Source of the DNA: Catajapyx aquilonaris
Lineage: Eukaryota
NCBI GenBank assembly: GCA_000934665.2
Contig: KZ538849.1
Coordinates: 1-44,951, forward strand
Length of the DNA stretch: 44,951 nucleotides
Direction: 5' to 3'
How positions within the stretch are numbered: position 1 is the first letter of the stretch; each line of letters opens with the position of its first letter. Shown in pieces: positions 1-35,487 of this stretch. A model generated the notes under the pieces. It did not search any database. It was not told where the DNA came from and saw only the letters and a program-made list of their open reading frames with translations. A program made the translations under genes and the position numbers.

Positions 1-150
1 TGCTTAACCCCAACACTAATGTTAAACCAGTCAGAGAAACCCCCACTAGTTCTAACACAAGCTCTATTCTCTTCATACAATGACTTTACAGCCTCCAACA
101 GGGGGCCCTTCACTCCATAGAGACTCAGAACTTCCCACAAACCTTCCCTA
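1..150 (-). mobile_element. RTE-clade LINE reverse transcriptase fragment
   Basis: Minus strand reads REGLWEVLSLYGVKGPLLEAVKSLYEENRACVR/FSDWFNISVGVK, typical of RTE RT upstream of the GxxQG motif. Confidence 0.8.
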
Positions 151-735
151 CTTACTGTGTCATATGGGCAATCGACTATAGAAAATAGCAAAATATCTAA
201 CCACCAAATATGTTGCATGAATTTAGGCAGAAATTTTTTTTATCTTTAATTGGGAGCACCACTCTTTATTTAGTTTCTTAATTATTCACATTAATTTGTA
301 AGAAAATTGATATGCTTTCCACCTTGGATGGCAGAGAATGAGTCCCTCTCACATGAGACCACCAGAGTCTTGAATCCAATGTGTGCACTCCCAATTAGGA
401 CATGTCCCCCTGTCCTCCTTGGATGCAAGCAATGGATGATGGGTTTTAGAGGGGTTTAGAGCAGTGCTCTAAACCCATCATTCATCCACCTTCCTGCAAG
501 GAGTAGGTGCAGAAAATTTTGGGAGAAGAGTAGTAGTGGGAGTTATTAGTGACCGGGAGGTTTGTAGGATATAAAATTTTTTGCGAGGGCCTCAGCTTGA
601 GCTCTCTTGGACCAATACAATCAAGGGGGGGGCTGTACGGTGGGATTCACACTGCAGTTAAAGTGATGATTCAAGGTTGCATGCTTGCTGCCACCGAAAA
701 GGTTGTACATGCATTGGACATGCCATTCTGATGTA

Positions 736-7071: not shown

Positions 7072-10000
7072 CTGAAATACATAAATTTTAGTTGCTTGAC
7101 AGCTCCAAATATCGAATTATAATGTGACAATACATGAACAAGCTTGTAGGCTACTCTTTATGCCATTCACCCACACTGCATGAAACTCATTGTAAATAAA
7201 TCAAGGCACAAGGACAGAATGGTTATATAGCAGTTAGCAGTTGGTAGGCTATGCAGAGATATATTTGTCATTTGTTCATTGGTAAAATAATGGCAGAACC
7301 ATCTGGTATTAAGTTATTTACAAATCTGACATAGCTGATGTTGAAGCTCCAGAAGATGCTTCATCTATGCCAGTGCCATTGGAACTGAAAAGAAGATCCA
7401 ACGTAATTATTAATAAATAAAGGCCATTTCAAAAATATATTAAAATACTTTTGATTTATACAAATTATAACGTACTTGGGTGCTTCATGCTCAGGGGACG
7501 AGTGCTTTTGTGAAGGGGTGCCTGTAAAACACAAGCTTCAAAATACATGTGCTTCAAGTTTAAAAAATTAATTATTAAGCAGGCATAAGCCCTACCTTGT
7601 GTTTGGACCTTTACTGGTTCTGTCAGGAATGGCTTATTCCAAAGATCAATGTAATGAGCCAAACACCTGTGATTTGCATCACTCATTTTCTTTTTCAATG
7701 CGTGGTTCAAAAATTTGAGGCTACAAGTAGTAATATTAATTAGTTCTCATGATTATAGTAATGTCATAACCCTGATGGTAAAAGATGATAATCTACCAAA
7801 TCTATCAACTTACAATAACACGTCCATACATTTGGGTAGATTAAGACACATTGAGGCAATGACATCTATAAATGGTATCTTGGAGTCTGAAGTGCTTGCC
7901 AGGGCATAGTCGAAACCATTTTTCATAAAAGCTTTTGCTCCTGCTTCATATTGGCAATTTTTAGAGAAGAATTCAGCTAAGTCAGATGCCAATTTCTGGA
8001 AAGTCAAAATTAATGTTGCATATGACGGTTAATAATGGCTGGAATTTTCATCCCACTGATAGCTACTGCCAAGCTAATGCTACTGCTAACTTAGCAGTAC
8101 AAGTGTTGGCCATGGCACTGATAAGTTAGCAGTAACTCTCAGTGGGACGAAAATTCCACCCACTGATTCTAGAGGCTGTTTTTGGAGAATAACTCAATAA
8201 CAGTGAAGAAAATCACTTGAGCTTTACATTCCTTAGTTGAAGAGTGAGACTCCGAAGTCCCCTAAGTCCATATTCATGAAAAATGAGCTGATGACATCTA
8301 CTGGTATAGCTTATGGAGTTACGGTACTCCCCACCTCCTCCTGAGGTCAGAACACACCAAATGTCCCTAACTCCAAGCACAGAAATTGGAGTTTTCTCAA
8401 ATCCCATATAAGCCCATGTTATTGATGCCAACAAAAACTCAAATCTCAAAACAACAAAAATTGACTTAGGGCCGTTTTCTCGAACAGTGGTTCAAATGTA
8501 AACCCGGTTCAAAGCCGATTTAAACCCTTGACAACAGCCTTACAACAATCAAATCAGGGATTAAACTGGCTTTGAACCTCGTTTACATTTGAACCACTGT
8601 TCGAGAAAACGGCCCTTAGGGGTCTTTGGAATCCGCCTCTTCAATTGTGAAAACTCAGTATTTCATTAAATATTGTAATATAATTATCATAACACATGTT
8701 GAGTAGAGCTCTGCCCTAATCATTGCTTTTGTGAAATAAAAAAGTCTAAATGGGACCTTAGTTGCAATAATATAATCTACATACTCTATTTTCAATGTGA
8801 TTATATTGATTACCTTTGACTTGGCTAGCGCCGACTGGCTGCCAGGATGTTCCTCATTTTCGATTTCAAATTTTACTATCAAAGACTGGAGGGCAATTTT
8901 AGCAAAGCGCTTGAAGTCCTTCTGGGCAATCTCAGCCAGGGTTTTCTTCATAGTGTAGTCATAATCTTTATGCACCTGTATTTAATAAGTTTTGTTTTAA
9001 AGTTTTCCCCAACTCATAATAATATTCAAATTACTATTTGCAAATACTTGAGATTTTACCTGGCCGTAATGTTGGAATATCTTGGCCACATTTTGCTCGG
9101 AAAACATACCATATTTCACGAGATTGCAAGCCCTGTAAAACATCCACTTTTCTTCTTCGTGCTGTTCTTTGCTACAAAGCTGATTCTCTGTAAATGAATA
9201 AGTAATAAGTGAATAAGTAATCATTATTGAAATATTTCACTTGATGCAGGTAGTAAACTGATCAAAAATGAACCTCACCATTATTCCCACAGCTGATGCG
9301 TGCTGCCGCTTTCGATGAAAGTTCAGCCCACTTCTGGACTAGAACATCTTTCAGAGAGTCATTTGGAGTTATGACCATATTTTCTAGATGTGGATATTGT
9401 TTTGCTTCATATTTTAATGTTTCAACTAGCTGGCAGGTAGTTATGAAAGCCTAGATTAAATCAAGATGTATCATTACCCAATCAATACTTTTTCTTTCCT
9501 ATATTACTCTGCATTTAGGACATACAAAAAGTGAACTGCCATCACAGAGGTAGTGAACAGCCTTTTGATACCATCATCACCTGATCTCGTCACATCCAAC
9601 CAATAACCTAATGCAATGGAGTGGCCGAGCCTCCCTGCACAGGATATTGCCTTTTACATTACTGGCATTGCAAACCTTGTCAGAGAGTGCAAATGTTAAA
9701 CAAGTGTAAATATTATTTTATGTTTTTAGATGTGATGTTAAAAAGTACATCCTGCATCCAAGTTTGAGAAGAACAAGTAGCTCTTGAAAAATGAATTATG
9801 ACATAGCACATGTTTTCTGTCTCATGCTGTGTTAATGTTTGTTTCATGATTTAGCAGTCTGCATGTTTCCACGGAAATTATCCATCGAGAATAGTGCATG
9901 GCTGCTTTAGAATGAACTTAGGAAGAAATTGGCAAAATCACTCACGTGGTTGTGCAATTCAACAGCTTTGCAGTCATTCATAACACGCGACATCAAGGTC

Positions 10001-12635
10001 AAAAATTCGTCTGTCCTTGACATGAATACATCATGGCCTCCTGACTGTACAATCTTTGCTCTAGCGCAGAAGAACGCCCATGAAACATGTGCATAGCATA
10101 TTGATATGCAGTGGTTAATAGCCTGATACGATAAAGAAAGAAGAAATAGTAAAACCAATGTACAGTATTTGTAGCAACCTGCCACCATTAGAAAAGCATG
10201 CAGCTGGCAGTCTTTACCAGCTCTTTACCTGCATAGGGTAATCACTTGTAATTTGGAGGCTGCTTTCGATTAAGACAATTGTCTCTCTCCATATGTCATA
10301 TCTGTCCACGTAGATGTATGAGTACAAGGACGCAACTTTTTTGCAGGCAGTGATCACATCAGAATGATCACAATTTCTCTCTCCTTCCTGTGAGGATTAT
10401 TTACCAATAAAATTATTAGGGTGTCCTATTTTCAAAGGTTTAGAAAAATTACAAATGGGTACTTTGCAAAATCACTATCCTAATTTCAGTGTTTATTTTC
10501 TAACTATGGCACAAGAAGGGTGCACACGTTGGAAAAGATCTTAACATGTAAAAGAGTACAGTGAAACCTGTCTAAAGTGAAATAGCTCAATCCACGGATA
10601 TTCCATAAGGAACATTTCTTACTTAGACAAAAGTGCATTAAAAATCAGCAGCTGGAATCAGAGAAAATTTCATTTTGGCCAAGTATCTGCAGTAAATAGG
10701 GTTCATTACAGACATGAGACATGCCACTGTTAAATTTTCATTTAATTTAGCTACTTTTAAGAGAGAAAACCCCCTATTGATCTTTCCTTCCTGTTCCTAA
10801 CTGAAACCAACAGTTCTCAGCACATTATGCCAAACATCTGTAGTGTTACCACTGTATATACAGCTGCTTAAACCTACCTTGCTGTGGTACTCTTTCCAAC
10901 TTTCCTTCCACTTCTCCACAAACACTTGGGCAATATGCTGTACATCAGTAAAGCATATTTCTCCAGTAGCCTGGCTATTTGCAAGAACACCAAGGCTTGC
11001 TGCTGCACAATGCATAATCTCAGAGTCCACATGTGTCTCCACAATGTCTTTCAGTACTCCCAACACATCATTGAGATAAATCTCCAGGCCATCAAAATTG
11101 TGGGTCAGGTCTAAATATTGAATTAATTTTACTATGGGAACCAGGTTCTCATGTACACTACCAAACTTTATCAAATCGGGTAATTCTTTTAAAAAATGCT
11201 GTGTTCCAAGCATTCGCTTCTCGATGATTTTGTCAAGCTCATCAGTGGATGCACCCTGGAAGAGTTTTTAAATTCATTATAACATATGCAGAGATACAAA
11301 AAAAATTACATGTGGCTAATGACTGCATTTAGATGGATTCAGATTATTCACATCTCACAGTCAGATGTGGAAGGGCGTGGTCTTACCAACTACACCACTG
11401 TGCTTCCCTCCCACTACCTGGCCATAACTGTGTTGTGATTGTATTGTATTGTATTGTGTGTAAATCTAGGAAAGATTATGAATGTGTATCATAATGTAAT
11501 ACCATTTTTGCCAATAAACTATCTGGCACAAAAAGGTTGAGGTGGGAATTTCTTCATGAGAAAAGGTTAGGAAATGTTGTCTCAGTCTTCCTTTCATTCC
11601 TATGCTACAGGGTCATCGAAAAAGAATGTCCCAGTTTGAAAACTCTATAACTCAAAAACTTGTAGACATATCTTAATGATTTAAGTTTTGAAATGCTAAG
11701 AGGTGTCTAATGTTTTGTCCTTACCATAAATGTTTCGATATGAGCTACATGTGTCGCTCGAAAAATTTAAATACGGTAATCGGTGTCGTGCCAAACCCGC
11801 TCCAGCATGTCTGGCGTTACCGTTGCAATCTTATCCCGTAGGTGCTAGTGATGCCGGATCTTTTCACCATACATGTGTCTCCACAAAAAAGTCAATTGGG
11901 GTAAGATCTGGGCTTCTGGAGGGACTAAGCATAGTGAAACTTCTCATTAAAGACTTCGCACACTGGGAGGCTGAACAAATGAAACTTTCCTACGGCAGGT
12001 TTGTTTCATGGATGAGGCGACTTTTTATGTGAATCATCAAGAACAATGTGTGTGGTGTAAAGACCCAAGATATCCAGCACCTACGGGATAGGACTGCAAC
12101 GGTAACTCCAGATATGATTGATAGGGTTTGTCACAACACCGATTACCACCTTTTAAAATCTTCCGAGCGACACATGAAGTTCATATCGAAACAAACTAAG
12201 GTGAGACCAAAACCTTAGACCTTTCTTAGCATTTCAACACTTAAATAATTCAGATATGTCTACAAGATTTCGAGTTATAGGGGAGGTGGAGTGGTGCTGC
12301 GGTAACGTATGCGCCCACGGATGTTAAGGTCCCGGGTTCGATCTCAGCCTGGGGACACCCCCTTCATCTCGTGCAGAGTTCAGGGTCACCTCTGGCTTCG
12401 TCTCGGGTGGTATTTCCACAGACTAAACCATCAGGGGGAGTTCACTAAAAATGGTCACGTTTAAGACATTGCACTGCACCTTGCACATCCCCTCCTGTCA
12501 TCCTGCCCGTGGGCCCGGGCGATTCGCTCAAGGTTCCAGCATTGTACTGCATTGTACTTCAAGTATAATAAAGGTCCGTGCCGCATACCCTATATAGGGT
12601 CAGGCACTACCCAAGGATTATTATTATTATTATTA

Positions 12636-12683
<48 letters not shown>

Positions 12684-13518
12684 CGAGTTATAGGGTTTTC
12701 AAATTGGGACATTCTTTTTCGATGACCCTGTACTGTGTCACACTTTCATCAGTTTTTCTAGGAACAGTGATGAGTCATGCGACCCCCAAAGCAGTGGACG
12801 TAGCCCTTGACTGTTCTTTACTGGATCATCGAAAGTATTAAGACTTCATTCTGTTGCCATCTATCAACTCTGACAGCTTCCCCATATTATTTGCACTTTC
12901 CTCAGTATTAATAATTTATTATAATAATTGATTACCCTGTGATAGACCCGGGACCCCTTAGTCCTTAGTGGATCCTCTTTTAAATACCAGAATTGATAAA
13001 TTCTTACAGTGATGATGGATATGTTATTGTGGGAGGGAACTCTGAGAACCCCCATGCAAACATGGAGAGAACCTGTCAATACTGTTTTCTCATGAGAGGT
13101 CTAATCTGGGGGACTGAATGCAGGACCTAACCAGTACACCTATTTCAAAAAAGTTGTTTTTGCCTGCTTTTGGTTTTGTTGCCATGAGCTAGGCTAAGGG
13201 TCAAACCGATGCGATGGAAGGTCACAGGATGTATACTGTAATATATTGTCTTCTGTGCATACAACATTGTAGGAAGAAAACAATAGTCAAATATTTCAAA
13301 GAAGATCTCATAGTCATAGTACTATGGACAGGAAATAGGTGCTCCACGAGCATGACACTTATTGCACGATTCATTTATGGGATAGTGTGTAACAGACTTC
13401 TGACCTAGTATCTGCTTAAAGGTACGCATGATGAAGTCATTGAGTTGCCTACCCCAAATAGTGTTCATCCATGCTTTGGCAATTTATGGTGTGATCCACA
13501 TGCAAGTCTGGCATTCAA

Positions 13519-13611
<93 letters not shown>

Positions 13612-16600
13612 ATGTTGATTAGCATTATGAGTCATTTTTTGTTTGTAATACTTAGAAAACTTATGAATGATGATGTCGATGTGGAAATATAGGCATATTT
13701 TTTACTTTCCTTGTCTGAGGGTGGGGTTGAAACTGGGTGTCCCCTAGGAGGGACACTCGGCAAATGCACCACATGTGGACCGGCAAGTCAAGTACTGGTA
13801 CTCTTTTTTTTTTTTTTTTTTTACGTCACCCCGTGCTAGGGCCATGGGTCCTTATAGGGGGGTGGGATACCACCATTTTCTTCAATTTTCTATTTTTTCT
13901 TCTTCACTCCGGTGCAAGGATGAAAGGACATGGGGAAGGGATAGGGGATTTTTGGGGAGGGAACATGGGTGCAAGGTGCACGTCTGAAAACGGGTCATGT
14001 TCTGTTCCCCAGGAGGTTAGGTTGCCAGACACCTCCTTGGTGCAGGTCAGAGACCCTCCCGACGCAGGTGAAAGGAAAGTTCCCCAGGCGGGGATCGAAC
14101 CTGGGGCCTTTCACACAGCAAGCCGTGACGTTACCATCACGGCCACCACACCTCCCCAAGTACTGGTACTCTATAGGCTACTGTATGTGTGCGGATTTTG
14201 TGCGTTTTGTCGAACTGAATTTTTATGAATCCCTATTTTTAAAATGAGGGTTACCCGGCAACCATCGTAGCTATGGTAACCCACTGCCATGTACAATCAA
14301 ACATACATGCATACAAACTTTCGATTTTGGATCCAGTGAAACCTGTGTATAGCAGAATAGCACGGTGCCCTAAAAATCGTAATTGACAAGTTTCCGCTAA
14401 AAATTACGATTTTCCTAGTCATCAGCACCAAACGGGTAAGAGTGGAAGTGAACGCTGCAACGCCGCAAAGCATTGTGGGCAGAGGTGGTAGAGAGTGGGG
14501 AGAGAAAAAAAGTGGTGCTGTTTTTGCGGATCGCGCGCGAACCATTTAGCGATGTCGGATATATAAGGCCTAGTACGGTATATCAGCCGTTTCCGCTATA
14601 TTCGACACTGTATTTACGTCCTATGCATATGCCCGTTCCCGGAAAAATTCCGCAATGAACAAGTTTTTGTAACACTCGTCAGGGTAGGCTACGTTATGGA
14701 CAGGTTTCTCTACATATTTATCTAAAGTGAATCCTGTCCATAACGGACCCTGAACATAACGGAAACTTGCCTATTGCGGAATTTTTCTGGTAACCGGCGC
14801 ATGGAAAGTACACGATTTCCGCGTCGAATATAGCGGAAACTTGCTCATTACAGAAAATTTTATCATCCCGTGCATTTCCGCCATGCGCAGATTTCACTGA
14901 TATAGCTAGATGGGAAGTAAAACCTGTCTATAAGGGACCTTGTATATAACGGAAACTTGTTCATTGCGGAATATTCGAGTCCCGTGCATTTCCACTATGC
15001 ACAGGTAGTTTCACTGAATATAGCTAGATGGGAAGTAAAACCTGTCCACAACAGACCCTGTGGATAACGAAAACTTGCCTATTGCGGATTTTGTCTGGTA
15101 ACTGGCGTATGGAACATACACGATTTCCGTGTCGAATATAGCGGAAATTGTGTAATTTTCATACACCAGTTACCAGAAAAATTTCGCAATAGGCAAGTTT
15201 CCATTATACACAGGGTCTGTTGTGGACAGGTTTCACTGTATATTTATATACAGCGAAACCTGTACATATCTGAATAGCACGTGACTCTAAAATTCCGCAA
15301 TGAACACGTTTCTGTTATACCCTCCTGAGACCAGAGAAGCCATTTGTGCAATTATTTAGTAATACTTTGGAAGAACCCTCTGTAGTGGAGGTGTAGAAGC
15401 CATTTTTCAGAATTTCATATTTTTGTTGCAATCACTTATCGCAAAATTAGATGATTGTCCTATATATAGGACATTGGGTCTTAGCTATAACATTCCTTCT
15501 CTATATTTTTCAATGAATTTTTAAAAAACTTTTATCTTTATTTCAATACAGCAGTCTATATCTTACGTTTTCCTTGTACAGTATAGGGCTCCATACTAGA
15601 TGTTACATTTGCCGGGTGTCCCCTATAGGGGACGGCCCTTTTCTTACAATCTAGCATTCTATCATTTTTTAAATAATTTTTGTTGTGTTTTGGGGACTAT
15701 TATGAACTAATAAAAACAAACAAAAAACAAAATTTAAACAAAAAATCTTTCAGGTATATCTGGGTTAATTATAACAGGTTTGTCCACTAACATGTGCATG
15801 CATTAGCACTACAAATGTATTAACTTACATAACATCACAACTGGTTAGGGGGTCCAAAAAACTTGGCCCAATTCACATGAAAAATGCTTCATGTTCAAGT
15901 AATATTAATAAGGCTTGCCTATAAATGGCTCTGGTACGTTTTAAATGTGCAGCACTTACTTTTTTCCAACGCTTCCCAGTTTCAATCTGCTTCATGCTTA
16001 ATGTCATTAGTTGGAAAAGGAATCCAATTTCTACAGGTTCCAGCTTCTCTTCATTTTCTCTATCCTCCAAGAGTAAGGTAGTCATGGTTTTCCAATCAGT
16101 TACCAAATCATGTACTCCTAGTAGTGACTCCACAATTACATCAAGGTATGTAACCAACTACAAAAAAAAGTTGCATAAGTTTTTCAAACTATTACTGATG
16201 ATTACCGTAATAAACTATTTTAAATCATGCCAAACTAGTTCCAATCCTTGCATCCTTAGCATCAGAAAGGACAAGGATCATGTATTGGCTACTGGTAATG
16301 CCTTGGGTAATGCTCACCTTTCTTGAAATGATGTAATACACAAAATGTCTTAGAATCATAGTATTTGATGGTTTCTTCTTCCGTTTGCCTCGAGAGACTT
16401 TCACTTTACAATCTTTCACCAGCTCATCCATGAAGAACTTTCCTGCTGTTGTGAATATGTCCCTCTTACTAGAGCACACCAAGAGGAGCAGACCACTCTC
16501 CCGAAAATTGTCAATGCTTAGATTGTGACAACCACATCTGTAACAGAAGTATGTTACACTAGATAGACACCACTCATTATTTTATCGTGATTTTTATATT

Positions 16601-17269
16601 TAAAGATGCTGCAGCACTTCTTCACATACTGTATGAAATCAGAAATGATTTTAAAATAGTAGTCAACAAAGAAGCGGCTGGTGCCTTAAGCCTCACCTGA
16701 ATATTTCAAGGAGAACCTTCATTGCAAGGTCGGATGTTGTTAAATTTGAATTCTTTGTCAGACTAATCACATGTGCCTCGTAGATACTAGTGCGTTTCTT
16801 CAGATAGGGGATGACGTTAGGTGAAGCGAACAAGACACCCAAACTCTGCAGGTAAAATATTAAATATATGAAAGCACAGTTCCATATAATTCAGATACAG
16901 TGTGTACGTTGAATCCCTTCTCCACTGAGGAAATGCAGTGCGGGCAGGGGTGTCACGAGAAAACTTTGGCAGGATACATGCTAAATGTACACAGCTAGCA
17001 TGCACACGTGGACAATTTTGGCAGGGTATTGCGATGCATATTATATCTGTGTACCCCCTCTGTAACATCCCTTGCTGTTTTATGATGTCATGTCAGCTGT
17101 CAGAAATCAGGTTTTAAGGACCAAGGACTCACCAGGTCACATTCTACATGTTACATTTGGTATGATTCACCAAGAGCTTAGCTCTTGGATTCACTAATAT
17201 CTTGCCAATATTGTTGCCTGCAATGAATCATGTAAGAAGCTTGGGGGGGGGGGGGGGNNNNNNNNNNNN

Positions 17270-17300
<31 letters not shown>

Positions 17301-20300
17301 GAGAGTCATCTTGACCAAACAGTGAAGTAAATGACCTGACTCAGAGGGATCTAACCAGCCTCAATAGAAAAGAGCCCTTGGAAGTCCTCATTAAGGTTAC
17401 ATATCCAAGCATTGGCATGTAAAGTAGAAATCTGGGGGAGTCTATAGATATAATTTTTTTTGGCCCAACCATGAATGATTGTAACTGCAATAGAAGGTTG
17501 TTGTAAATCGTCTTATGGATAGCAGCATTCATGAAATAGTTAGAGAAGGCTGTATTATCCTCCTGTAGGGGAGGCGGAGTGGTGCTGCGGTAACGTTTGC
17601 GCCCACAGATGTAAGGGCCCCGGGTTCGATCCCAAGCCCAGGCTTTCCCCCCTTCATCTCGTGCAGAGTTGGGTGTCTCTGGCTGCGTTTTGGGTGGGAC
17701 TCCTTGAGACTAACCACCCGGGGGAGTTCACAAAATGTACCATTACAGACATTGCATTTTGCACATTGCACATCCCCTCCCACTCATCCATGCCTGTGGG
17801 CCCGCCCGGGTGCTTCGCTAAAGGTCCATAGTGTTGCAGTCATGGTTCATGAACACATTTGCCTCAGCAAAATCTCCTCGCTTTCGATATCTTACCATCC
17901 TACAACTGAACAGAAGGGGGGCCTCAAGTGTTGGTTGTAAAAGCCAATTTGAATATTTTTCTTCACAAAAGAGAGAACCTTTTCAGGTTGGTAACATGGG
18001 ACAAAACTTGGACTCCACATTTCTGTCAGGAAACAAAAATGGCGTCAAAACATTGGGAACACATGGTTTCTCCACCTTCCTAAAAGTTCAGGGTGCAGCA
18101 GTCAACTTCAAAGTAGATTGTCATAAAATCTTCTTGGATTGAGGTGGTGTTATGATGTTAAGTTTATAGGGAAGAGGGGCACAATCAATATGGAGGTAGT
18201 TTTTACACCAACTGTCTATGTATGTTGAGACAGGAATTGAGAAAGAAGATGCTATGGCATTGATGTTTTCCAGAGGAACAGTGGCTGATGGCCTGCCAAG
18301 AATGAGGGTCATCTTCCAGACTCTCTCCAACTTCTCAGAATATTTAAAAAAATTATTTATTTATTTATTGTACCCCGTGATGACCCTTACGGGTTCTATA
18401 GGGGGGTGGTACACCACCATTTTTCCTCAATTTTCTAAGTTAACTTCACTCCGGTGCAGGGAATCAAGGAGATTGGGTAAGGATAGGGATTTTCCGGGAG
18501 GGGACAGTTCAATGTCTCAAGTTTGGGCCATATGCAGTCCTCCAGGAGGTTAGGTTGCCAGACACCTCCAAGGTGCAGGTCAGAAACCCTCCCGACGCAG
18601 GTGAAAGGAAACACNCCCCCAGGCAGGGATCGAACCTGATGGAACCTTTCACTCAGCAAGTCGAGAAGCTACCATCTCGGCCACCACACCTCCCTCCTTC
18701 TCAGAATAGTGCGGCCGATTTCTTCAGAGTTGAATATGATTGAGTATAATTCCCCAGTGTCTCTTTGTGGCTGTCCTTTGGCATAATAATAATAATGCTC
18801 TAGTCATGCGGCAAAGATATCATTAACACCCAACCTACACATAATGGTAAGATTACTGAAATAATATGTACTTATTAGCTGGTAGGCCTAAATTTTGTTA
18901 TGAGGCTCACCTGATACTGTACAAGGGCATGACATAAAATAATGGCAACACCTCTATTTACTAGTACATTCATGTGGAATATTATTGTCACAAAAAATAG
19001 CTTACGCACATTCCTTAAACATGATCCCTTCCCATATTCATTGCCTTTTGCACTGGGCAAGTGGGCATCTTCATCTGAAGAAGAGAGCATCCTAATATAT
19101 TTTGTGTGAAAATGTGCTCCTTGCAGGCATATCTTCTTTGCAAAGTGGCTGGCTGTATATGGCAATAATTCAGCATCACTTGCTCTCTGAAAACCTAGTG
19201 AACATTTCCAAGCATTGACATTTCTGTTTTTAACCATGTTGTTACTCTGTCTTGGTGAATATCTCTTTAGGGAGGACCTGCCTGATGATGTAACTTTACA
19301 ACGTTCCACAATAATATTGTATCCTAATGGAGTGAACTTGTGAATCTCTGCCCATCTCAAATTCCACACAATCTATTAATGACAGTAGACATAACAACTA
19401 CATCCAATGATTGTACAGCACAAAATGACTGTGTTGCCACTACTTTATATTTAACACTCCTAATAAAGAAGGTAACAAAAGAAAACAATACAGTGGGACC
19501 CACTTATTTGGACCACATCGGGGCCACGGCATTTTGGCCCAATAAAGCGGGGGTTCAATTAACCTGGGTTCTTGTGAAACAACGGGGAAAAAACGCAAAA
19601 GATTAGACTGCACTACCAGCATTAATCCTCAAAAATTATTGCACAACAGGTGAAGGTAAAATCAATGTATAAAAGTGACTGTGTCATGCAAGTGTCATGT
19701 AAATGCAAAGTACTGTACTGTACAGTAATTTTAGTGCTCACTCACTGTAAAAAATTGTCTAGTAACATCTGTCGGGTTCTTGTTTTTGACTTCAGGTTAA
19801 CAAAGTTCGTGCAGGTGTCGAGTGCAGTCACAGGACCACCGTCATTCCCTACTTGCATAAAAAATCGTCAGTAGTATAGCATTATAGCAACTAAACTGGT
19901 CCGACTAACTGGGGAAATCACCACCTATGCGGGGAAAAATTACATTTATGGGATTGATTTGATTCCAGCCCTGGTGATTTGGTCCAAAAATGCAGGGGGG
20001 GCCAATAAATTGGGCCACCGATAAAGCAGGTCGCACTGTATTATAATAAATATAACTGACACATGCTGCACAAACATCACCTGTAACATTTTGTGTACCA
20101 CCCCTGGATCGGAATCTGCTAGAAGGCATTCAACAAGACCGAACACTTCTGGCTTGGTAAACTTTGCAGGAAAAATCACTACCCATTCAGTCAATTCTTC
20201 TATAACTAGCTGGCGAATCTTCACGCTTGAATCCATGCAGCGCTTTGCGTACACATTGTCAAGCAACTTTGCAATAACGCTATCCAAGTTTTTCTCAAGA

Positions 20301-22120
20301 CGTTTAAGGCCATTTATGATTTTGTCCAATTTCCTGTTGCTCTTAGTATTGTCTGTATGTTCATGCTTTTGCTTTTCATACTCCTTCTTGTTCGTCTGAT
20401 TATCACGCAGCATTTCAACAAGCGCTGTTATCATCTTGAGCGCTGCAATTCAAAATGATTAATATTTGAATGTTGCAATCACATTTCCCACAAATTGCCA
20501 AATATTCCCAGCCAAAAAAGTCAAATATTTGAAGGGGTAGAAAGAGAGGAAAAATGGGTCTTATATTATAGCAAGGCAACTTTTACTTCCCTCCCCCCCC
20601 ACATTCTGAACAGAGTTAAATGATTTTCTCATAATTATTTTATAATGGTTAAAATTGAGGAGAAACTGACTCATTTTCTACACCATCCCATTGCAAAATA
20701 CATGTTTTTCTTCAACAGTGAAAGTTTAAAGAATGCAACTAAGTTTTGCCTCATATGTCAACAAAAGCTGCAGTTACACAGTGCCTATACACTTACCCAC
20801 AAATGCATAATAATATAAAATGGATTAAACTGCAAACCTGCTCTTGCTGGCACTTCACGATATTCCTCAATGTGCGAGCTTGACAAGCATATTAAAAAGT
20901 TGGAAAGGATATCCAGCACTGCATCATTATTCATGATATCTTGTTTCATTTTAAACACAACAGATATCATGAACTCATCGAACATAGGCATCAGTGTCCT
21001 TCTATCATTCCTCGTCATAAAGAAGTTTTGAGGTTTACCCTGAAAAATAATGTGACATTCAAATAAAGTAAGTCTAAGATGGGACTACCATTAAAGGCAT
21101 GAATATTTTCTGTGAAGTTTGTAAGGCTTAACCCCTCAGGCTAAATTCTGAGAGGCTTGGACGAGCCACACTAGAGGCATTCCACATGAACTGGGCCATC
21201 TTTTACATTCAGTGTCTCTACTTTCAATCAAATTAAGGATATTTTGTGGTACTAAAAGACAAACCCTATTATTGGATAAACTGGTTTTGGCATCTGCTGA
21301 ATGGTTTCATACAGGGTGCGGAAATTTAATGTAGGGTTGCTTTGGGGGATGCAGGGTTCTAGGGGATCATTTTAAGTATAGGAATCATGGGTCTCCAAAG
21401 CATGTTACCAAAAAAATGAGCATCAAGAAGTTAAAAGTGCATTTTCCCAGCGTGTATGTACGGATACAGCCTACGACATTTCCATCGCCTAGGCCAGTGG
21501 TTCCCAACGTTTTTCGGGTCGCGGCCCCCTTTTATGATAGTCAAGTAACCTGCGACAGCCTCCCCCCCCCCCCTCTTCCGAGTATTAGTAGAAGGTTAAG
21601 GAAGTGTCGACATATTAAAGCATATTTTAAAACCCGTGGTAAAATTTCCTATAAAATTTTTGCAAGTAAAAATTATCACGACACCACGAGACTCCCTGGA
21701 AAAGGCTTCACGACCCACAGGTTGGGAAACACTGGTCTAGGGCTCTAGGCCATTTCCTGTTATGCCTAATGGGATCCTATCTTAAATTTAAATTGCATGA
21801 TAACACCTCAATAACGTAAATGGGGAGGCGGAGTGAACATATGCGCCCACAGATGTTAAGGTCCTGGGTTCGATCCCAGCCCAGGGTTCCCCCCTTCATC
21901 TCGTGCAGAGTTGGGCCATCTCTGGCTTCATCTCAGGTGGAATTTCCATAGACTAATCCACCCGGGGGAATTCACAAAATGACCACACCTAAGACATTGC
22001 ACTGCACTTTGCACATCCCCTCCTGTCATTCTGCCCGTGGGCCCAGGCGTTACTTAAAAAGGCTCCAATATATGTACGAGACATAAATAAAGGTCTGATA
22101 AGGTCAAGCACTATACCCGG

Positions 22121-22182
<62 letters not shown>

Positions 22183-25100
22183 ATTATTATTATCATCATT
22201 AACCGAAGCAGGTTGGCATAGTGGATAAGGCGTCCGACTGCTAATCGGGAGGTCCTGGGTTCGAATCCCGGGGCCGGCAACTCTGACCGTGGTTTTCTGT
22301 GGTTTCCCACGGTCCTTCCAGGGAAATTCCGGAGTTGTTTCCGTAATTAACAGGCCACAGCCGCTTCCTTCCGTCCCTATCCCATCCCAAAAAGTGCAGT
22401 AAAATGAAAGCAAAGAGTTCCAGGCAAAAGAAAAACTTCCCCCCTAAAGAGCCGAAAAAGGCTGATAACGGGGTATGAATTGTTATTATCATCATTATCA
22501 TTATTGTTGTTGTTGTTGTTGTTGTTGATGTTGATGTTATTATTATTTATTAACGTAAATGGAAAAAGTAAGGTCGCGTAGAGGGATGCATACCTGCCAG
22601 GATATTTTATAACTTAGTTTGTGTTTGTCACTCATTGTCTCGGTAACTATGCTTCGGATACCCATGATTACTGATACTTAAAATGATCGCCTAGAACCCT
22701 TCTACCATCCCCCAAAGTCATGGTATGTTAAATTTCTGCACCCTGTATATGCTGCAGGCACCTGTAACTGCGGGGTTTTTTTTTTTTTTTTTTTTGGTGT
22801 GCAGGTCACATTATGGAATCAGAAGTTACCTGTTCACCCCATGTGAAGGTAATAATAATTAATAATTCATACCCCGTTATCAGCCATCGGCTCTTTAGGG
22901 GGGAAGTTTGTTTTGCCTGGAACTATTAGCTTTTCATTTTACTGTGCTCTTTGGGGTAGGATAGGAAAGGAAGGAAGTGGCTGTGGCCTATTAATTACGG
23001 AAGCAACTCCAGAATTTTCCTGAAGGACCGTGGGAAACCACAGAAAACCACGGTCAGAGTTGCCGGCCCCGGGATTTGATCCCAGGACCTCCCGATTAGG
23101 AGTCGGACACCATATTCCCTCCTCCAAACTGCTTCGGTCCACGCCATGTGAAGGTCTAATACACTGCATTATTTTAGGACAGCTTAATTTTTTGTATACT
23201 TTTTCTCGCCAATACACTTATTTTTCATTCCACTCAAAGATTAATCTCAGGCATTTGTTCTAAATGCAGTATTAGGAATTTTTCATTTTACAACACTGGA
23301 TACATTTTAAAAATTGGCATATAAAATATCTTCAGCATATCTGATTTATGGCAACCAAGTCTGTGTAAAATAAATGACACTGTATCTGTCCCATTCGAAT
23401 CTTCCCTATTTGAGTGTCATTTCATTACACAGCCAAAATTTTGCTTCTTGAGTGATTTCCAACAAATGCAAGAAGATTCACCTTTTTACTCACAATGCGT
23501 TTATCCCATTCTTACATGAGAAACTGAATGAGGCAATAAATTCTTTTGCAACCTATTTATTGTCAAGTGAAATAATGTGAGGCAATAGAACCACCAACTG
23601 ATGGGCACAATTACTCCACTCTGATGTATTGTAGAAAATTATAATTCCACCAAAAGAATTTCAAAATGAAAATGCCAAAATGTACTAAACTGTACAAGTC
23701 CCTTTCTATTAAAAATTAGTACAGTAAAATGGATATATCATCTATGAAGTGTACTTTAATAGATCCCAGTGAGACAAGTTCATTTCAAAAAGCAATTTTC
23801 TTCTCCATGTTTTTCCTGAACACACCTGTCTCCCATTTTAATCATGTGCTCACAAGCAAGGAGACAGGAAGCAGTACAATCAGAATCACCCCAGAACACC
23901 TACATGTAGAGATATTCAGCTGGGAGAGATGAATCAGTATTCATCATGATGCCACCTTCCCCTGCAATTCATTTTAAACTCGAAAATATTGCTTGCACAT
24001 GAGAATAGCTGAGCCACTGATGCCAAATTGTATGTTTGTCTTTGCCACTTCAGGTGTGTAATTTTAATCCCCATAAAAAAAATATTTCAAGTGTCCATAA
24101 CTGACATATTCAAACTGTTGGGCATGATATTTGAAGGCACAAAAAACTAGGTGCTCACAAGATCTCATAAAATAATAGAACAGCCCCATTTTGCATCCTG
24201 GCATACGATATACAAGTGATATCATAACCTGCACTCTAAAATTGTTGGCATTATCTGCATATCAACACTAGTAGACGCTGAAACAGCTTTGCCACAAAAT
24301 ATTTTGTTGGTGCTACAGAAATGTACCATACATGATATTACAAATTGAATAAGAAATATGGGATAGATGACCTGTTTCACTTGGAATGCCTAAGTAATTT
24401 TCACATCCCCTGGTAACACCATGTGAAGTAATACCTGGTAAAACTCAGAAAAGAACTTTCTTGATAGTGTCTCAGGGTGCTCATCACGCTTCATGCCAAC
24501 AGCTACTTTAGCGTCAAATCCAATCATGTGGATTACAAGTTGCATTAGTCTTAATGTAGACACATTCTTATCATGCTGGTACTTATCATACCAACACTGC
24601 ACAATCTCCTACAAAAAGGAAAACATATTATCGTAATGTAAAAAATGTCACACAAATTATAAAGTGGCAAATAAAAATTACTGCCTTGCCTCCATGTTTG
24701 CATTCCTTTGGGCCAATTTATACATGACACTACCATGATCGAGCAAAGGGAACTTCCTTTTTTTACATGGCTTCTTCATCTTATTATGAGGCTTTTTCTT
24801 GGGATCACTTCTTCGCTCACCATGATCCTGAATTTCATCTTTCTTGTCAGATATATTGTCAAGATCGCTTTCTGCCTCAGGGGGCATAATGTCTGGATCG
24901 CTTGTTGCGTCAGGGGTCATGTCTGGATACCTTATTGCTGCCTCAGGGGACATACTGTCTGGCAAGCTTATTGCTGCCTCAAGGGGCAATCTGTCTGGAT
25001 GGCTTGTTACATCAAAGGACACAGTGACTGGATGGCTTGCTGTCTCAAGGGACACACGGACTGGATCGCTTGTTGCCTCAGGGGACACACTGTCTGGAAA

Positions 25101-28100
25101 GCATTCTGACTCAGGATACATATTGTTGGGATAGCTTGTAGCCCAAGGAGACATAATGTCTGGATCGTTTGTTGCCTCAGGGGACACACGGACTGGATCG
25201 CTTGTTGCCTCAGGGGACACACTGGCTGGATCGCTTGATGCCTCAGGGGACACACTGTCCGGAAAGCTTTCTGACTCAGGATACATATTGTTGGGATAGC
25301 TTGTAGCCCAAGGAGACATAATGTCTGGATCGTTTGTTGCCTCAGGGGTCATGTCACCTGGATCGCTTGTTGCCTCAGGGGACACACTGACTGGATCGCT
25401 TGTTGCCTCAGGGGACACACTGACTGGATCGCTTGTTGCCTCAGGGGACACACTGACTGGATCGCTTGTGGCCTCAGGGGACATATTGTCTGGATCGCTT
25501 ATTGCTGGCTCTAAAGGCATACAGTCTGGATGGCTTGCTGCCTCAGCATACATACTGTGTGGATAGAATGGTGGTGCATCAGGGGACATAGTATGGGTAG
25601 CTTGTTGCTGCAGGGGATATATTGTCTGGGTTTCTTGTTGCCCCAGGGATGGCTGGATCGCTTGTTGCCCCACGGGATACACTGTCTGGATCGCTTGTTG
25701 CCCCACAAGATAAATTGGCTGGGTTGCTAGTTGCCACATAGGATACATTGTCTGGGTTGCTTGTTGCCCCATGGGATATATTGCCTGGATGGCTGGTTGC
25801 CCCAGGATATACATTGTTTGGATCACTGGTTGCCCCATGGGATACATTGTCTGAATCACTGGTTGCCCCAGGGGATACATTGTCTGAATCACTGGTTGCC
25901 CCAGGGGATACATTGTCTGGATCGCTGGTTGCCCCAGGATATACATTGTCTGGGTTGCTTGTTGCCCCAGGGGATACATACTGTCTGGATAGATTGTTGC
26001 CTCAAGGGGCATACTGGCTGGATGGCTTGTCACCTCATGGGACATTTCATCTGCTTCATGTGGTATTTCGCCATGACCACGTCGATTGACTCGGCGACCA
26101 CCTGATATGGGTAGTGATACACGCTTCCTCTTTTTGCCCACATTCTTTGTGATATCTGTTTTAAACATATCAAAATACAATAAAATGTTAATAATACTAT
26201 TACCTTCCAGTCTATTGCCAAGTTTCATGGGGAAACGATTTCTTTAGGCAAAGAAAATTAACTAGTTACCCCCAGATGAATATTGTACCCACAGTAATCT
26301 TATCACATTCCAAGACATATAGGGGCCATTTACACAGCATTGAGGAACTCGGATCCATATTCCACTATACCAGTCGTCCAATATTATATTTTGATTGCCA
26401 CTTTCTGACCACTGTATTGCCAATAACAGATTGTCGATAATCTGGTTTTATGTCAACATGGATGAATGCTGTTGGTTATGTTGCCATCTTTTTTGATGCC
26501 AACATTTATTCAATTTGATATTTTGTCACATAATCATATCTGGATTGGGAATAGTGGACCTGTTATGGTTCCTTGGTTCCATGTAAATGACATTGTATAT
26601 CTTGCAGGTAAAGGTGGGAATTGTTACAAATGTCCCTCATTATACTTGTAACTCCATGTTTCAAAATATTACCAAGGCAATAACTTACTGAGAGAGTCAT
26701 CTCTTGAGACCACAATAGTAACCGTCTCTCCTCTTACTCAGGCACACACCTGATTCCGGTTTATACTTCGTTGATTTCACAGCAGAGAAAATCACATATG
26801 GGTCATTCCATGTCAGTTCATCCAGCCATGTCACCCACCATCTCAGATTTTCTTGAAATTTTAACTGGGCAAACTGTGTACTGAGAAACTAATATCCTGA
26901 AAATTTTAGCCTCCTAGCTCTTATAGTTCTTGAGCTATGGCCAGGCAAATGAGGGTGCAAATGGCTACGGCAGAGTTGTGAAGGCACGACTTGTTTTTCA
27001 AAATATTTTATTGTGTGTTAACTAATTGGTGTAGAAAGTTGAAAATATTTGTACTTATGCACATAAACCTTCCGATTCCAAAAACGCTGTCAGATTTGTG
27101 CTGAGATCATATCTTCACACATTAATCAATAACATTATTTGTTGGCATGACCTTGAAACTTTCACAGCTCATTCCCAAAATGTGTATCCTCCAATTTTCA
27201 TGCAATTGCACCAAAAGAAAGGTCTTGAAGTCTACTTTCAGGAGGTGTAAAAATTTGTCTGTGTATTTTGGTTTTTCACCTTGATAATGGCACATTAACA
27301 CAAAGTTTCAATCAACAAGACTGTTCTCTTGACACACTCCTTCAGATTGCTATATAATTACTCCAGTATCTGGACATGATAATTTGAGTCTCATTCGTTG
27401 GCCTAAAGAGGACACAATTACATTTTACAGTGTCTATTTGGCAACACCCCACTTATACAAGTGGCAACACAGTTCCTAACTATAGCAGCACGGTGTGAAA
27501 CTGGCAACATGTTGGCAGGTGAATCACTCACTCTAGATCCAAAGTTCATCATTGTGCACCTGCACATTCAAAATGGCCAGTTCACATTGTTCAGTTGGCC
27601 TATTAGTGAATGATCCCTGCCATAAAACCAGTTATACCAGTGTTCTGGGGAAAAAAGTGTGTCAGAACTAAGCATGAGGAAAACCAGGAGAGTCTTGCAT
27701 TGCGAATTGGAGTACCAAAGAGCAATTTGGTCACCCTTTGCCTGCACCATGCAAGTGAACTCTTTTGTTGCATGTGTTTACGATCACCATTGGTATCTTG
27801 GGGTTGTGGATGAAATGGGAAAACATGACTTTGATGGTGATGTATATGTGAAATTTATGCATCCACATGGCCCAGCAAGATCCTACTATTGGCCAAATCC
27901 TGATGATAAGTGCTGGGTTCCAGTGCTATGTGTGGTAGGAATGCCTACTACTGCAACTGGAAGGCAATACCAACTGTCACGGGTGTCATCCAAGGACACT
28001 GAAGCTGCTTGGTGTAGTTTCACGAAAAAGGAAAGTGACTTATAACATGTAAGTTGAAATAAGTTTTGCTTTGGTGTTGTGTCTTTACAAAAATAATTAT

Positions 28101-35463: not shown

Positions 35464-35487
35464 AATTTGTAGTGCCCCTCGATTAGT

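What the first reader, a model, noticed from the sequence alone, without database searches (positions are those of the whole stretch)
16697..20442. Cohesin SA paralog that has lost the conserved essential surface (CTCF/shugoshin/WAPL docking site)
Seen: the spliced peptide LDNVYAKRCMD...FTKPEVFGLVECLLAD...LKKRTSIY aligns without gaps to human SA2 residues ~289-371, recalled from memory. Structural residues are kept (R296, D299, I304, R305, E310, E311, W315, F323, D338, T368, S369). The CES residues are replaced: K290D, Y297C, R298M, D326P, K330G, Y331L, W334C, F367R, R370I, with only F371Y conservative. Established: this SA-RAD21 surface binds the YxF-type motifs of CTCF and shugoshin and is used by WAPL, and it is highly conserved in canonical SA proteins. 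Inference: this gene encodes a specialised cohesin-like subunit that is blind to those regulators or has new partners.
Basis: partly seen in the sequence, partly recalled or inferred. Interest (0 to 1): 0.8.

Follow-up and report, generated by a model that had tools for sequence, protein, structure and literature searches.

The report
Divergent cohesin SA gene lacking docking surface
An intact, intron-containing gene of the cohesin SA/STAG family has diverged extremely and has replaced every residue of the surface where cohesin regulators normally dock, so it probably encodes a specialised extra copy and not the housekeeping subunit.

Summary
The minus strand carries a multi-exon SA/STAG/Scc3-family gene. 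Its 14 core exons give 925 codons with no stop, and all 13 introns between them are GT-AG. A repeat-rich first exon lies upstream. The finding's coordinates are the outer borders of two adjacent exons.

Three methods give one gapless register to human SA2: phmmer against PDB chains, MAFFT, and a profile built from reference proteins only. No other register keeps more than 2 of the 12 surface residues.

Among 43 other SA-family proteins, 42 keep 11-12 of the 12 residues, including meiotic SA-3 and an oomycete. One keeps 7. This gene keeps 0. The loss is enriched against other invariant positions of the same domain: 0 of 11 against 12 of 22, p = 0.0018.

The whole protein is also extremely diverged (about 25% identity, branch 9.2 substitutions per site), and the kleisin hot spot D793 is Gln.

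Paralog status, expression and partners could not be tested. I rate it a new variant of a known kind, of moderate interest.

The parts
24690..26228 (-). Putative first coding exon E1: 513 codons from the first in-frame ATG to a GC donor (GAG|GCAAGG). It is P/S/A/D/T-rich and ends in a basic patch plus an SA-like N-terminal motif.
   Evidence: The frame is open from 26243. The other two frames have 14 and 40 stops. The GC-donor junction gives a gapless fit to the SA N-terminus (inference). The start codon and the upstream half are uncertain.
24863..26045 (-). Tandem array inside E1: a 33-bp (11-codon) unit, 35.8 copies.
   Evidence: Tandem Repeats Finder, 76% matches. Repeat family D1. The unit changes phase relative to the ORF within the array.
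24435..24608 (-). Exon E2, N-terminal SA region.
   Evidence: AG/GT borders, phase 0. No Pfam hit on its own.
20838..21039 (-). Exon E3, first part of the STAG domain.
   Evidence: Pfam STAG 17.7 bits on the ORF piece, below the cut-off of 25. Borders.
20081..20442 (-). Exon E4: end of the STAG domain plus the first 64 positions of the SCD. It carries the equivalents of SA2 K290 to W334.
   Evidence: phmmer to SA1/SA2. Pfam SCD 22.3 bits, cut-off 27.5. AlphaFold2 model pLDDT 85.8 with TM 0.80-0.86 to SA2, SA1 and Scc3.
20126..20260 (-). Codons equivalent to SA2 290-334, with K290D, Y297C, R298M, D326P, L329F, K330G, Y331L, W334C.
   Evidence: Codon coordinates. Register.
16697..16845 (-). Exon E5: the rest of the SCD and the following helix.
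   Evidence: Borders. Register test. Contiguous profile alignment.
16780..16797 (-). Codons equivalent to SA2 366-371, with L366K, F367R, T368 kept, S369 kept, R370I, F371Y.
16318..16537 (-). Exon E6.
   Evidence: Collinear with canonical SA.
15960..16157 (-). Exon E7, start of the HEAT_SCC3-SA domain.
   Evidence: Pfam PF24571, 43.9 bits, cut-off 25.
10878..11255 (-). Exon E8, HEAT_SCC3-SA domain.
   Evidence: Pfam PF24571, 52.7 bits, cut-off 25. tblastn with P0004, E = 1.2e-9.
7609..10387 (-). Exons E9-E15: 10387-10229, 10122-9946, 9450-9279, 9187-9060, 8975-8814, 7995-7814, 7720-7609. This is the C-terminal half of the SA hook. It includes the D793 equivalent (Gln, in 9450-9279) and the D895 equivalent (Asp, in 8975-8814).
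   Evidence: Borders. Reference-only C-terminal profile scores 42.6 bits, best of 2000 shuffles 8.9. The 3' end of the gene below 7609 was not modelled.

Best explanation
This is a real, intact, lineage-restricted member of the SA/STAG/Scc3 (stromalin) family of kleisin-associated HEAT-repeat proteins. It has evolved extremely fast.

Shown:
- It keeps the stromalin scaffold. The STAG, SCD and HEAT_SCC3-SA regions lie in order, it is collinear with canonical SA over about 900 residues, and structural residues are retained.
- It has replaced all 12 residues that form the conserved essential surface (CES).

Inferred:
- Both aromatic sub-pockets that hold the two aromatic side chains of Y/F-x-F ligands are removed (Y297C and W334C; L366K, F367R, F371Y).
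- The charged rim is changed as well (K290D, R298M, D326P, K330G, R370I).
- The protein therefore cannot dock CTCF-, shugoshin-, WAPL-FGF- or CENP-U-type motifs in the canonical way.
- The CES is kept in every other SA-family protein examined, and in print even in microsporidia. This gene is therefore most likely an additional, specialised copy beside a canonical SA gene, perhaps with a germline function.
- Its product would be either a regulator-insensitive cohesin subunit or a stromalin that works with a different partner.
For: Gene integrity.
- The 14 core exons give 925 codons with 0 stops, against 76 and 86 stops in the off-frames. All 13 introns between them are GT-AG.
- The intron stop rate is 810 of 14182 codons, so P is about 2e-24 for an open frame by chance.
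- Contigs of run X1 show 0 differences on the exons they cover. X1 is probably the source DNA, so this is not independent.

Family.
- Pfam HEAT_SCC3-SA scores 43.9 and 52.7 bits against a cut-off of 25.
- Reference-only profiles on the spliced product score 38.8 (STAG), 33.9 (SCD) and 42.6 bits (C-terminal part). The best of 2000 shuffles is at most 11.4.
- The E4 model has pLDDT 85.8. Its top matches are SA2, SA1 and Scc3 at TM 0.80-0.86 and about 2 A rmsd.

CES loss.
- The candidate keeps 0 of 12. Of 43 references, 27 keep 12 of 12, 15 keep 11 of 12 and 1 keeps 7 of 12.
- At family-invariant columns, the candidate keeps 0 of 11 CES positions. It keeps 12 of 22 other invariant positions in the SCD block (Fisher one-sided p = 0.0018) and 68 of 180 over the whole protein (p = 0.0067).

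Constraint pattern.

Consequence for ligands, from passages read.
- W334A, F367A or F371A each abolish WAPL-FGF and CENP-U binding but not SCC1 binding (PMC11331136, PMC11182772).
- K330E abolishes WAPL and SGO1 binding (PMC5677968).
- The pocket is formed by Y297 and W334 on one side and L329, L366 and F367 on the other (PMC10279526).

Universality. The CES is retained even in microsporidia and red algae (PMC4175184).
Against: - Paralog status is untested. No genome is held.
- There is no evidence of transcription. No RNA run is listed, and the one contig of run X5 on the gene is unspliced.
- No orthologue was found, so no dN/dS could be computed.
- The CES loss is part of a global divergence: 25% identity, and 110 of 191 invariant positions replaced plus 13 gapped. 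Surface residues are expected to go first once any partner constraint is lost. The enrichment shows loss of constraint, not directed change.
- D793, the only known single-residue SCC1-binding hot spot, is Gln. Kleisin binding itself is therefore uncertain.
- The reference set is mostly vertebrate. It has no arthropod, mollusc, nematode, fungal or plant SA, and no SNM or Rec11.
- The first exon and the 3' end of the model are uncertain.
Confidence: 0.6

Rival explanations
1. It is the only SA/Scc3 subunit of a generally fast-evolving lineage. That lineage's cohesin would work without a canonical CES.
For: No second SA gene could be looked for. No conserved neighbouring gene is available to calibrate the lineage's rate: 0 of 10 neighbouring ORFs hit Pfam.
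Against: The CES is kept at 11-12 of 12 in a flatworm, a tunicate and an oomycete. According to PMC4175184 (passages) it is kept even in microsporidia and red algae with reduced cohesin machinery, and mutations in the domain are lethal or temperature-sensitive in yeast. The candidate's branch (9.2) is twice that of the oomycete (4.6) on the same tree.
Confidence: 0.1
2. It is a silent or recently inactivated relic, a pseudogene or unexpressed duplicate. Its CES decayed because nothing constrains it.
For: No RNA evidence. No orthologue. Extreme divergence. The introns are full of high-copy repeats. The first exon has a repeat array whose unit changes frame.
Against: At 9 substitutions per site, neutral decay would have destroyed the frame. 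Yet 925 codons are open and all 13 introns between the core exons keep GT-AG. Retention is non-random: 68 of 191 invariant positions and 11 of 11 structural residues are kept, against 0 of 12 surface residues. That is the pattern of selection for the fold.
Confidence: 0.15
3. The missing CES is an artefact of a wrong exon model or a wrong alignment register.
For: E5 alone gives no PDB hit and no hit to the E5 part of the reference profile. There is no transcript to confirm the E4-E5 junction.
Against: Three methods agree on one gapless register. The offset scans exclude alternatives. No CES motif occurs anywhere in the core. Eight of the 12 replaced residues lie inside the single exon E4 and do not depend on any splice junction.
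Confidence: 0.03

Closest known systems
Human cohesin subunits SA2/STAG2 and SA1/STAG1 (PDB 4PJU, 7ZJS, 6QNX, 7W1M)
   Same: Same family and domain order. Collinear over about 900 residues. The E4 model superposes at TM about 0.85. Structural residues R296, D299, I304, R305, E310, E311, W315, F323 and D338 are kept, and so is D895.
   Different: About 23-25% identity. 0 of 12 CES residues. D793 is Gln. There is a first-exon extension of about 500 residues with 11-residue repeats. The core has 14 exons.
Vertebrate SA-3/STAG3, the meiosis-specific paralog
   Same: A duplicated SA gene with a specialised role. This is the obvious analogy for a second SA copy.
   Different: All 14 rows with the K290R signature keep 11 of 12 CES residues; K290R is the only change. 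Most of these rows are named SA-3 by their sources. The named SA-3 rows form their own supported clade without the candidate, and their lineage is more than ten times shorter.
Drosophila SNM (SA-2), a stromalin co-opted into the SNM-UNO-MNM homolog-conjunction complex
   Same: A precedent for a stromalin paralog that left canonical cohesin. It keeps the SA fold and binds a kleisin-derived segment and DNA (PMC9767379, passages).
   Different: Relatedness, and whether SNM keeps the CES, were not tested. The paper calls SNM highly similar to stromalins, whereas this gene is extremely diverged. The gene structure here, with kilobase introns full of SINE-like repeats, does not look like a Drosophila gene (inference).
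S. pombe Rec11 and the five SA copies of Daphnia pulex
   Same: Further independent SA duplications, some meiosis-specific (PMC2680839 passages; bioRxiv 10.64898/2026.05.26.727825, abstract only).
   Different: Their sequences were not in the reference set, so the state of their CES is unknown here.

Membership tests
SA/STAG/Scc3 (stromalin) family, by homology | HEAT_SCC3-SA domain (PF24571) above Pfam's cut-off | tested here: met
   43.9 and 52.7 bits on two exon ORFs, cut-off 25.
SA/STAG/Scc3 (stromalin) family, by homology | STAG domain (PF08514) | tested here: met
   The two exon pieces score 17.7 and 15.5 bits, below Pfam's cut-off of 25, and the domain is split between E3 and E4. A reference-only profile on the spliced product scores 38.8 bits; the best of 2000 shuffles is 7.8. 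The spliced protein could not be given to the Pfam tool.
SA/STAG/Scc3 (stromalin) family, by homology | Stromalin conservative domain (SCD, PF21581) | tested here: met
   The exon piece scores 22.3 bits against a cut-off of 27.5, with only profile positions 2-48 of 75 lying in that exon. A reference-only profile on the spliced product scores 33.9 bits; the best shuffle is 11.4.
SA/STAG/Scc3 (stromalin) family, by homology | SA-type helical repeat fold of the SCD region | tested here: met
   The E4 model has pLDDT 85.8. The top-ranked Foldseek PDB rows, down to rank 25 as listed, are SA2, SA1 or Scc3, with TM 0.70-0.86. E-values are only 4e-3 to 3e-2, and the model's alignment was made of SA proteins.
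Canonical cohesin SA subunit (SA1/SA2/Scc3 orthologue) | Conserved essential surface (CES) retained | tested here: not met
   0 of 12 residues, against 11-12 of 12 in 42 of 43 references. 0 of 11 at invariant columns.
Canonical cohesin SA subunit (SA1/SA2/Scc3 orthologue) | SCC1-binding hot spot Asp793 | tested here: not met
   Gln, by MAFFT and by the reference-only profile. Numbering. The effect of Asp to Gln on binding is unknown.
Canonical cohesin SA subunit (SA1/SA2/Scc3 orthologue) | Second WAPL (YNARHWN) site residue Asp895 | tested here: met
   Asp is retained. Numbering. The role of the residue is from PMC11331136 (passages).
Canonical cohesin SA subunit (SA1/SA2/Scc3 orthologue) | Binds the kleisin middle region and travels with SMC1-SMC3 | not testable with these tools
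   No kleisin of this species is available, and the spliced protein cannot be passed to the complex predictor.
Canonical cohesin SA subunit (SA1/SA2/Scc3 orthologue) | Is the species' single or housekeeping SA gene | not testable with these tools
   No genome is held for the window.
STAG3-type meiotic paralog | Groups with the SA-3 clade | tested here: not met
   The SA-3 rows form a clade with 99% SH-aLRT that does not include the candidate. The candidate is unresolved on a branch of 9.2. Long-branch placement is unsure.
STAG3-type meiotic paralog | Germline-restricted expression | not testable with these tools
   No RNA holder is listed.
SNM-type co-opted stromalin | Sequence kinship with SNM; partner derived from a kleisin (UNO) | not tested
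No kleisin-like ORF was recognised in the window: 0 of 10 neighbouring ORFs hit Pfam.

The most novel reading that the evidence does not exclude
An independently arisen stromalin in a non-dipteran animal that has left canonical cohesin regulation altogether. One form would be a cohesin subunit that WAPL-FGF, shugoshin, CTCF and CENP-U-type ligands cannot see. The other would be an SNM-like co-option into a non-cohesin chromosome linker with a new partner. The pointers are the complete CES loss, the D793 change and a new N-terminal tail of about 36 eleven-residue repeats.
Probability: 0.25. Interest if true: 0.75.

Novelty: new variant of a known kind. Interest (0 to 1): 0.55.

Why it matters
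The CES is described as the most conserved surface of the only cohesin regulatory subunit present in all eukaryotes. It is now known as the hub where CTCF, shugoshin, WAPL, CENP-U and other Y/F-x-F ligands dock.

A natural SA-family protein that keeps the scaffold but has erased the whole hub would be a ready-made separation-of-function variant. It could show what a stromalin does when none of these regulators can bind. It could also show how duplicated cohesin subunits are re-purposed, as happened once in flies with SNM.

The value depends on three things not shown here: that the gene is expressed, that a canonical SA coexists with it, and what it binds.

Tried and rejected
- Own genome: none is held, so no search for a canonical SA paralog was possible.
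- Expression: no RNA holder is listed. Five runs are listed: X1-X4 are DNA of the probable source sample and X5 is of unknown kind. Laying X5 and X1 on 7400-26300 gave one unspliced X5 contig (10534-11180, covering E8 and its intron) and no spliced joint on the gene. The joints listed are between repeat copies.
- Relatives of the divergent gene:
  - The indexed search with the E4 ORF scored none of 229 candidates.
  - The exhaustive representative search with the E8 ORF gave 2 hits at E <= 1e-3. One is a canonical SA fragment (P0001). The other is an unrelated 1777-residue protein (P0002), which I take as a chance match.
  - The metagenome scan gave 1 locus, L001. It is a chance pattern match beside a recombinase-like ORF on what looks like a bacterial contig.
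  - Earlier notes of this scan gave nothing in 4 look-ups.
- Short exons alone against the PDB: E5, E11, E12 and E13 gave no SA hit.
- An early wrong inference: that the protein collection lacks eukaryotes. One search corrected it.
- Neighbouring ORFs: 0 of 10 hit Pfam. They lie in nested inverted duplications.
- Papers not held: Hara 2014 (PMC4190070) and Li 2020 (by DOI and as PMC7035113). Their residue lists are cited only through later papers.
- Literature on a CES-less SA paralog: 'STAG3' plus 'conserved essential surface' gave 0 papers. The terms STAG3, Rec11, SNM, SA3 and paralog do not occur in PMC10656103. The search listed nothing on this.
- Complex prediction was not run.


Full report
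WHAT IS THERE

The window is eukaryotic DNA with spliced genes, SINE-like high-copy repeats and assembly gaps. No whole genome is held for it.

On the minus strand, ORF pieces with SA/STAG/Scc3 similarity lie in order from about 26.2 kb down to about 7.6 kb. Pfam gives:
- HEAT_SCC3-SA at 43.9 and 52.7 bits, cut-off 25.
- SCD at 22.3 bits, cut-off 27.5.
- STAG at 17.7 and 15.5 bits, cut-off 25.
- No family for 6 of the 10 pieces submitted.

Using the printed border contexts, I defined 14 core exons: 24608-24435, 21039-20838, 20442-20081, 16845-16697, 16537-16318, 16157-15960, 11255-10878, 10387-10229, 10122-9946, 9450-9279, 9187-9060, 8975-8814, 7995-7814 and 7720-7609. Their phases are compatible and they give 2775 bases, or 925 codons, without a stop. 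All 13 introns between them begin GT and end AG.

The finding's coordinates, 16697 and 20442, are the outer borders of exons E5 and E4.

Upstream lies a 513-codon first exon (26228-24690). It is open in one frame only, with 14 and 40 stops in the other two. It probably joins E2 through a GC-AG intron. It contains a 33-bp tandem array of 35.8 copies. The 3' end below 7609 was not modelled.

THE OBSERVATION

phmmer of the E4 ORF against PDB chains hit only SA-1 and SA-2 (9 of 9 distinct sequences listed, best E = 1e-5). In full-length SA2 numbering (7zjs_A), query residues 1-100 equal residues 221-326.

A canonical SA protein, P0003, maps without gaps onto SA1 286-387, so its position plus 51 gives SA2 numbering. 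A fish SA-2, P0016, gives numbering for the whole protein.

MAFFT alignments and a profile built only from the 43 references give the same gapless register over SA2 286-378.

In that register:
- The candidate reads K290D, Y297C, R298M, D326P, L329F, K330G, Y331L, W334C, L366K, F367R, R370I and F371Y.
- It keeps R296, D299, I304, R305, E310, E311, W315, F323, D338, T368 and S369.

- Offset 0 gives 20 of 91 identities. None of the 40 other offsets gives more than 11, and none keeps more than 2 CES residues.
- For exon E5 alone, offset 0 is the only positive score against 7 of 7 references. Only 1 of 20,000 shuffles reaches it.

Against this: E5 by itself hits nothing in the PDB and is not detected by the E5 part of the reference profile. 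It does add about 13 bits when contiguous with E4 (33.9 against 20.6 bits).

HOW UNUSUAL IS IT

A profile search returned 40 SA-family proteins of 1279-3650 residues: vertebrate SA-1, SA-2 and SA-3, a tunicate, a flatworm, an oomycete, and an unnamed divergent one (P0046). With P0003, P0005 and P0006 they make 43 references.

At the 12 CES positions:
- 27 references have 12 of 12.
- 15 have 11 of 12. Fourteen of these carry K290R, most of them named SA-3. The oomycete has K290N.
- P0046 has 7 of 12.
- The candidate has 0 of 12.

Among 191 columns that are at least 95% invariant in at least 35 references, the candidate keeps 68 and has gaps at 13. It keeps 0 of 11 invariant CES columns. It keeps 12 of 22 other invariant columns in the SCD block (Fisher one-sided p = 0.0018) and 68 of 180 overall (p = 0.0067). 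An earlier hand count gave 0 of 12 against 17 of 40, p = 0.004.

Limits of this survey:
- The reference set is mostly vertebrate and was length-filtered.
- It has no arthropod, mollusc, nematode, fungal or plant SA, and no SNM or Rec11.
- The kept positions are mostly core residues. The test therefore shows that the constraint holding the CES invariant elsewhere is absent here. It does not show that the CES changed faster than neutral.

REAL GENE OR RELIC

In frame there are 0 stops in 925 codons. The two off-frames have 76 and 86. Introns carry stops at 5.7% of codons, which gives P of about 2e-24 for such an open frame by chance.

The protein is very far from all relatives:
- 157 of 629 aligned residues are identical to P0003.
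- SCD identity to P0003 is 20 of 91, against 39 of 91 for the oomycete.
- The terminal branch is 9.2 substitutions per site, against a median of 0.2, 4.6 for the oomycete and 6.1 for P0046. That tree used 18 rows chosen from 44; near-duplicate vertebrate rows and fragments were left out.

At that distance, an unconstrained sequence would not keep its frame, its splice sites and 36% of the family-invariant positions. I infer long-term selection for the fold.

In the oomycete-rooted tree, the candidate lies on the animal side of a split with 99% SH-aLRT that separates the oomycete and P0046 from the rest. It is unresolved within that group, and long-branch placement is unsure.

Expression could not be tested. 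No orthologue was found, so no dN/dS was possible.

WHAT THE CHANGES SHOULD DO

From passages read:
- The pocket for the second aromatic residue of SGO1, CTCF and CENP-U motifs is made by SA2 Y297 and W334 together with SCC1 residues. The pocket for the first is made by L329 or L366, F367 and F371 (PMC10279526, PMC11182772).
- W334A, F367A or F371A each abolish binding of WAPL(1-411) and of CENP-U, but not SCC1-SA2 binding (PMC11331136, PMC11182772).
- K330E abolishes WAPL and SGO1 binding, and the site also includes K290, R298, D326 and Y331 (PMC5677968). K330 mutation abrogates releasing activity (PMC10656103).
- The CES is present in Scc3 of all eukaryotes examined, including microsporidia and red algae (PMC4175184).

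Every one of these residues is replaced here, several by residues of opposite character (F367R, L366K, K290D). Canonical docking of Y/F-x-F ligands is therefore very unlikely. This is an inference.

- D793, the only single residue whose mutation is reported to reduce SCC1 binding (PMC5677968, PMC4989898), is Gln.
- D895, part of the second WAPL site (PMC11331136), is kept.

Whether the protein still binds a kleisin is open.

FOLD

An AlphaFold2 model of the E4 product has mean pLDDT 85.8 and five helices. Its alignment was the 17 reference rows of A2. Its best PDB matches are SA2, SA1 and Scc3 at TM 0.80-0.86 and about 2 A rmsd, with Foldseek E-values of 4e-3 to 3e-2 and none at or below 1e-3.

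COMPARISON WITH WHAT IS KNOWN

Independent SA duplications are in print for vertebrates (STAG1-3), Drosophila (SA and SNM), S. pombe (Psc3 and Rec11) and Daphnia (five copies) (PMC2680839).

STAG3 keeps the CES, so this is not a STAG3-like case.

The nearest functional precedent is SNM, a stromalin co-opted with a kleisin-derived partner into a non-cohesin homolog linker (PMC9767379). Kinship with SNM was not tested.

I found no report of an SA-family protein without the CES (searches; term look-up). Those searches cover only the open library.

VERDICT

It is best filed as a new variant of a known kind, a lineage-specific, highly diverged stromalin paralog lacking the regulator-docking hub. 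Interest is 0.55.

Noticed in passing
window 24863-26045 (minus strand, inside exon E1): The same 33-bp repeat unit is read in two different frames within the one long ORF. The motif phase is 0 around 25973-25874 and 1 from 25585 downward. This gives YPLGQPVIQTM-type 11-mers upstream and SPEATSDPVSV-type 11-mers downstream. It is either a real frame switch or an indel error of a short-read assembly.
   Followed up: partly
window 11.8-12.5 kb, 13.7-14.3 kb, 17.5-18.7 kb, 21.3-23.2 kb (introns of the gene): Very high-copy repeats: word depth is 1e4-1e5 in the DNA run, against about 30 for unique sequence. Some look tRNA-derived. ARAGORN calls a tRNA-Ser(gct)-like element at 22208-22279.
   Followed up: partly
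window 26790-29104 and 32999-38046: Nested inverted duplications with arms of 191-352 nt, 98-99% complementary. The second region is GC-rich (52-55%) and carries long ORFs (576, 408 and 253 aa) on both strands. These ORFs resemble each other and hit no Pfam family.
   Followed up: partly
window 17258-17270 and 18616: An assembly gap (run of N) flanked by poly-G and a (GGA)n stretch, and a single N, both inside the intron between E4 and E5.
   Followed up: no
window 10534-11180: Run X5 (same species label, kind unknown) has one 647-base contig identical to the window. It spans part of exon E8 and 344 bases of the downstream intron without splicing. It could be DNA or unspliced RNA.
   Followed up: no
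P0046 (unnamed protein, 1367 aa): A second very divergent SA-family protein from an unnamed source. It keeps only 7 of 12 CES residues (AFRNIKYWAFRF) and has a branch of 6.1. It shows that partial erosion of the CES occurs elsewhere.
   Followed up: partly
P0044 (2504 aa, named Mediator subunit 14 of a catfish by its source): Carries complete SA-family domains plus Mediator-14 domains. It looks like a fused gene prediction of two neighbouring genes.
   Followed up: no
window 3-239 (minus strand): An open-ended ORF that resembles a LINE reverse-transcriptase fragment. The resemblance is recalled; Pfam gave no hit at E <= 0.01.
   Followed up: no
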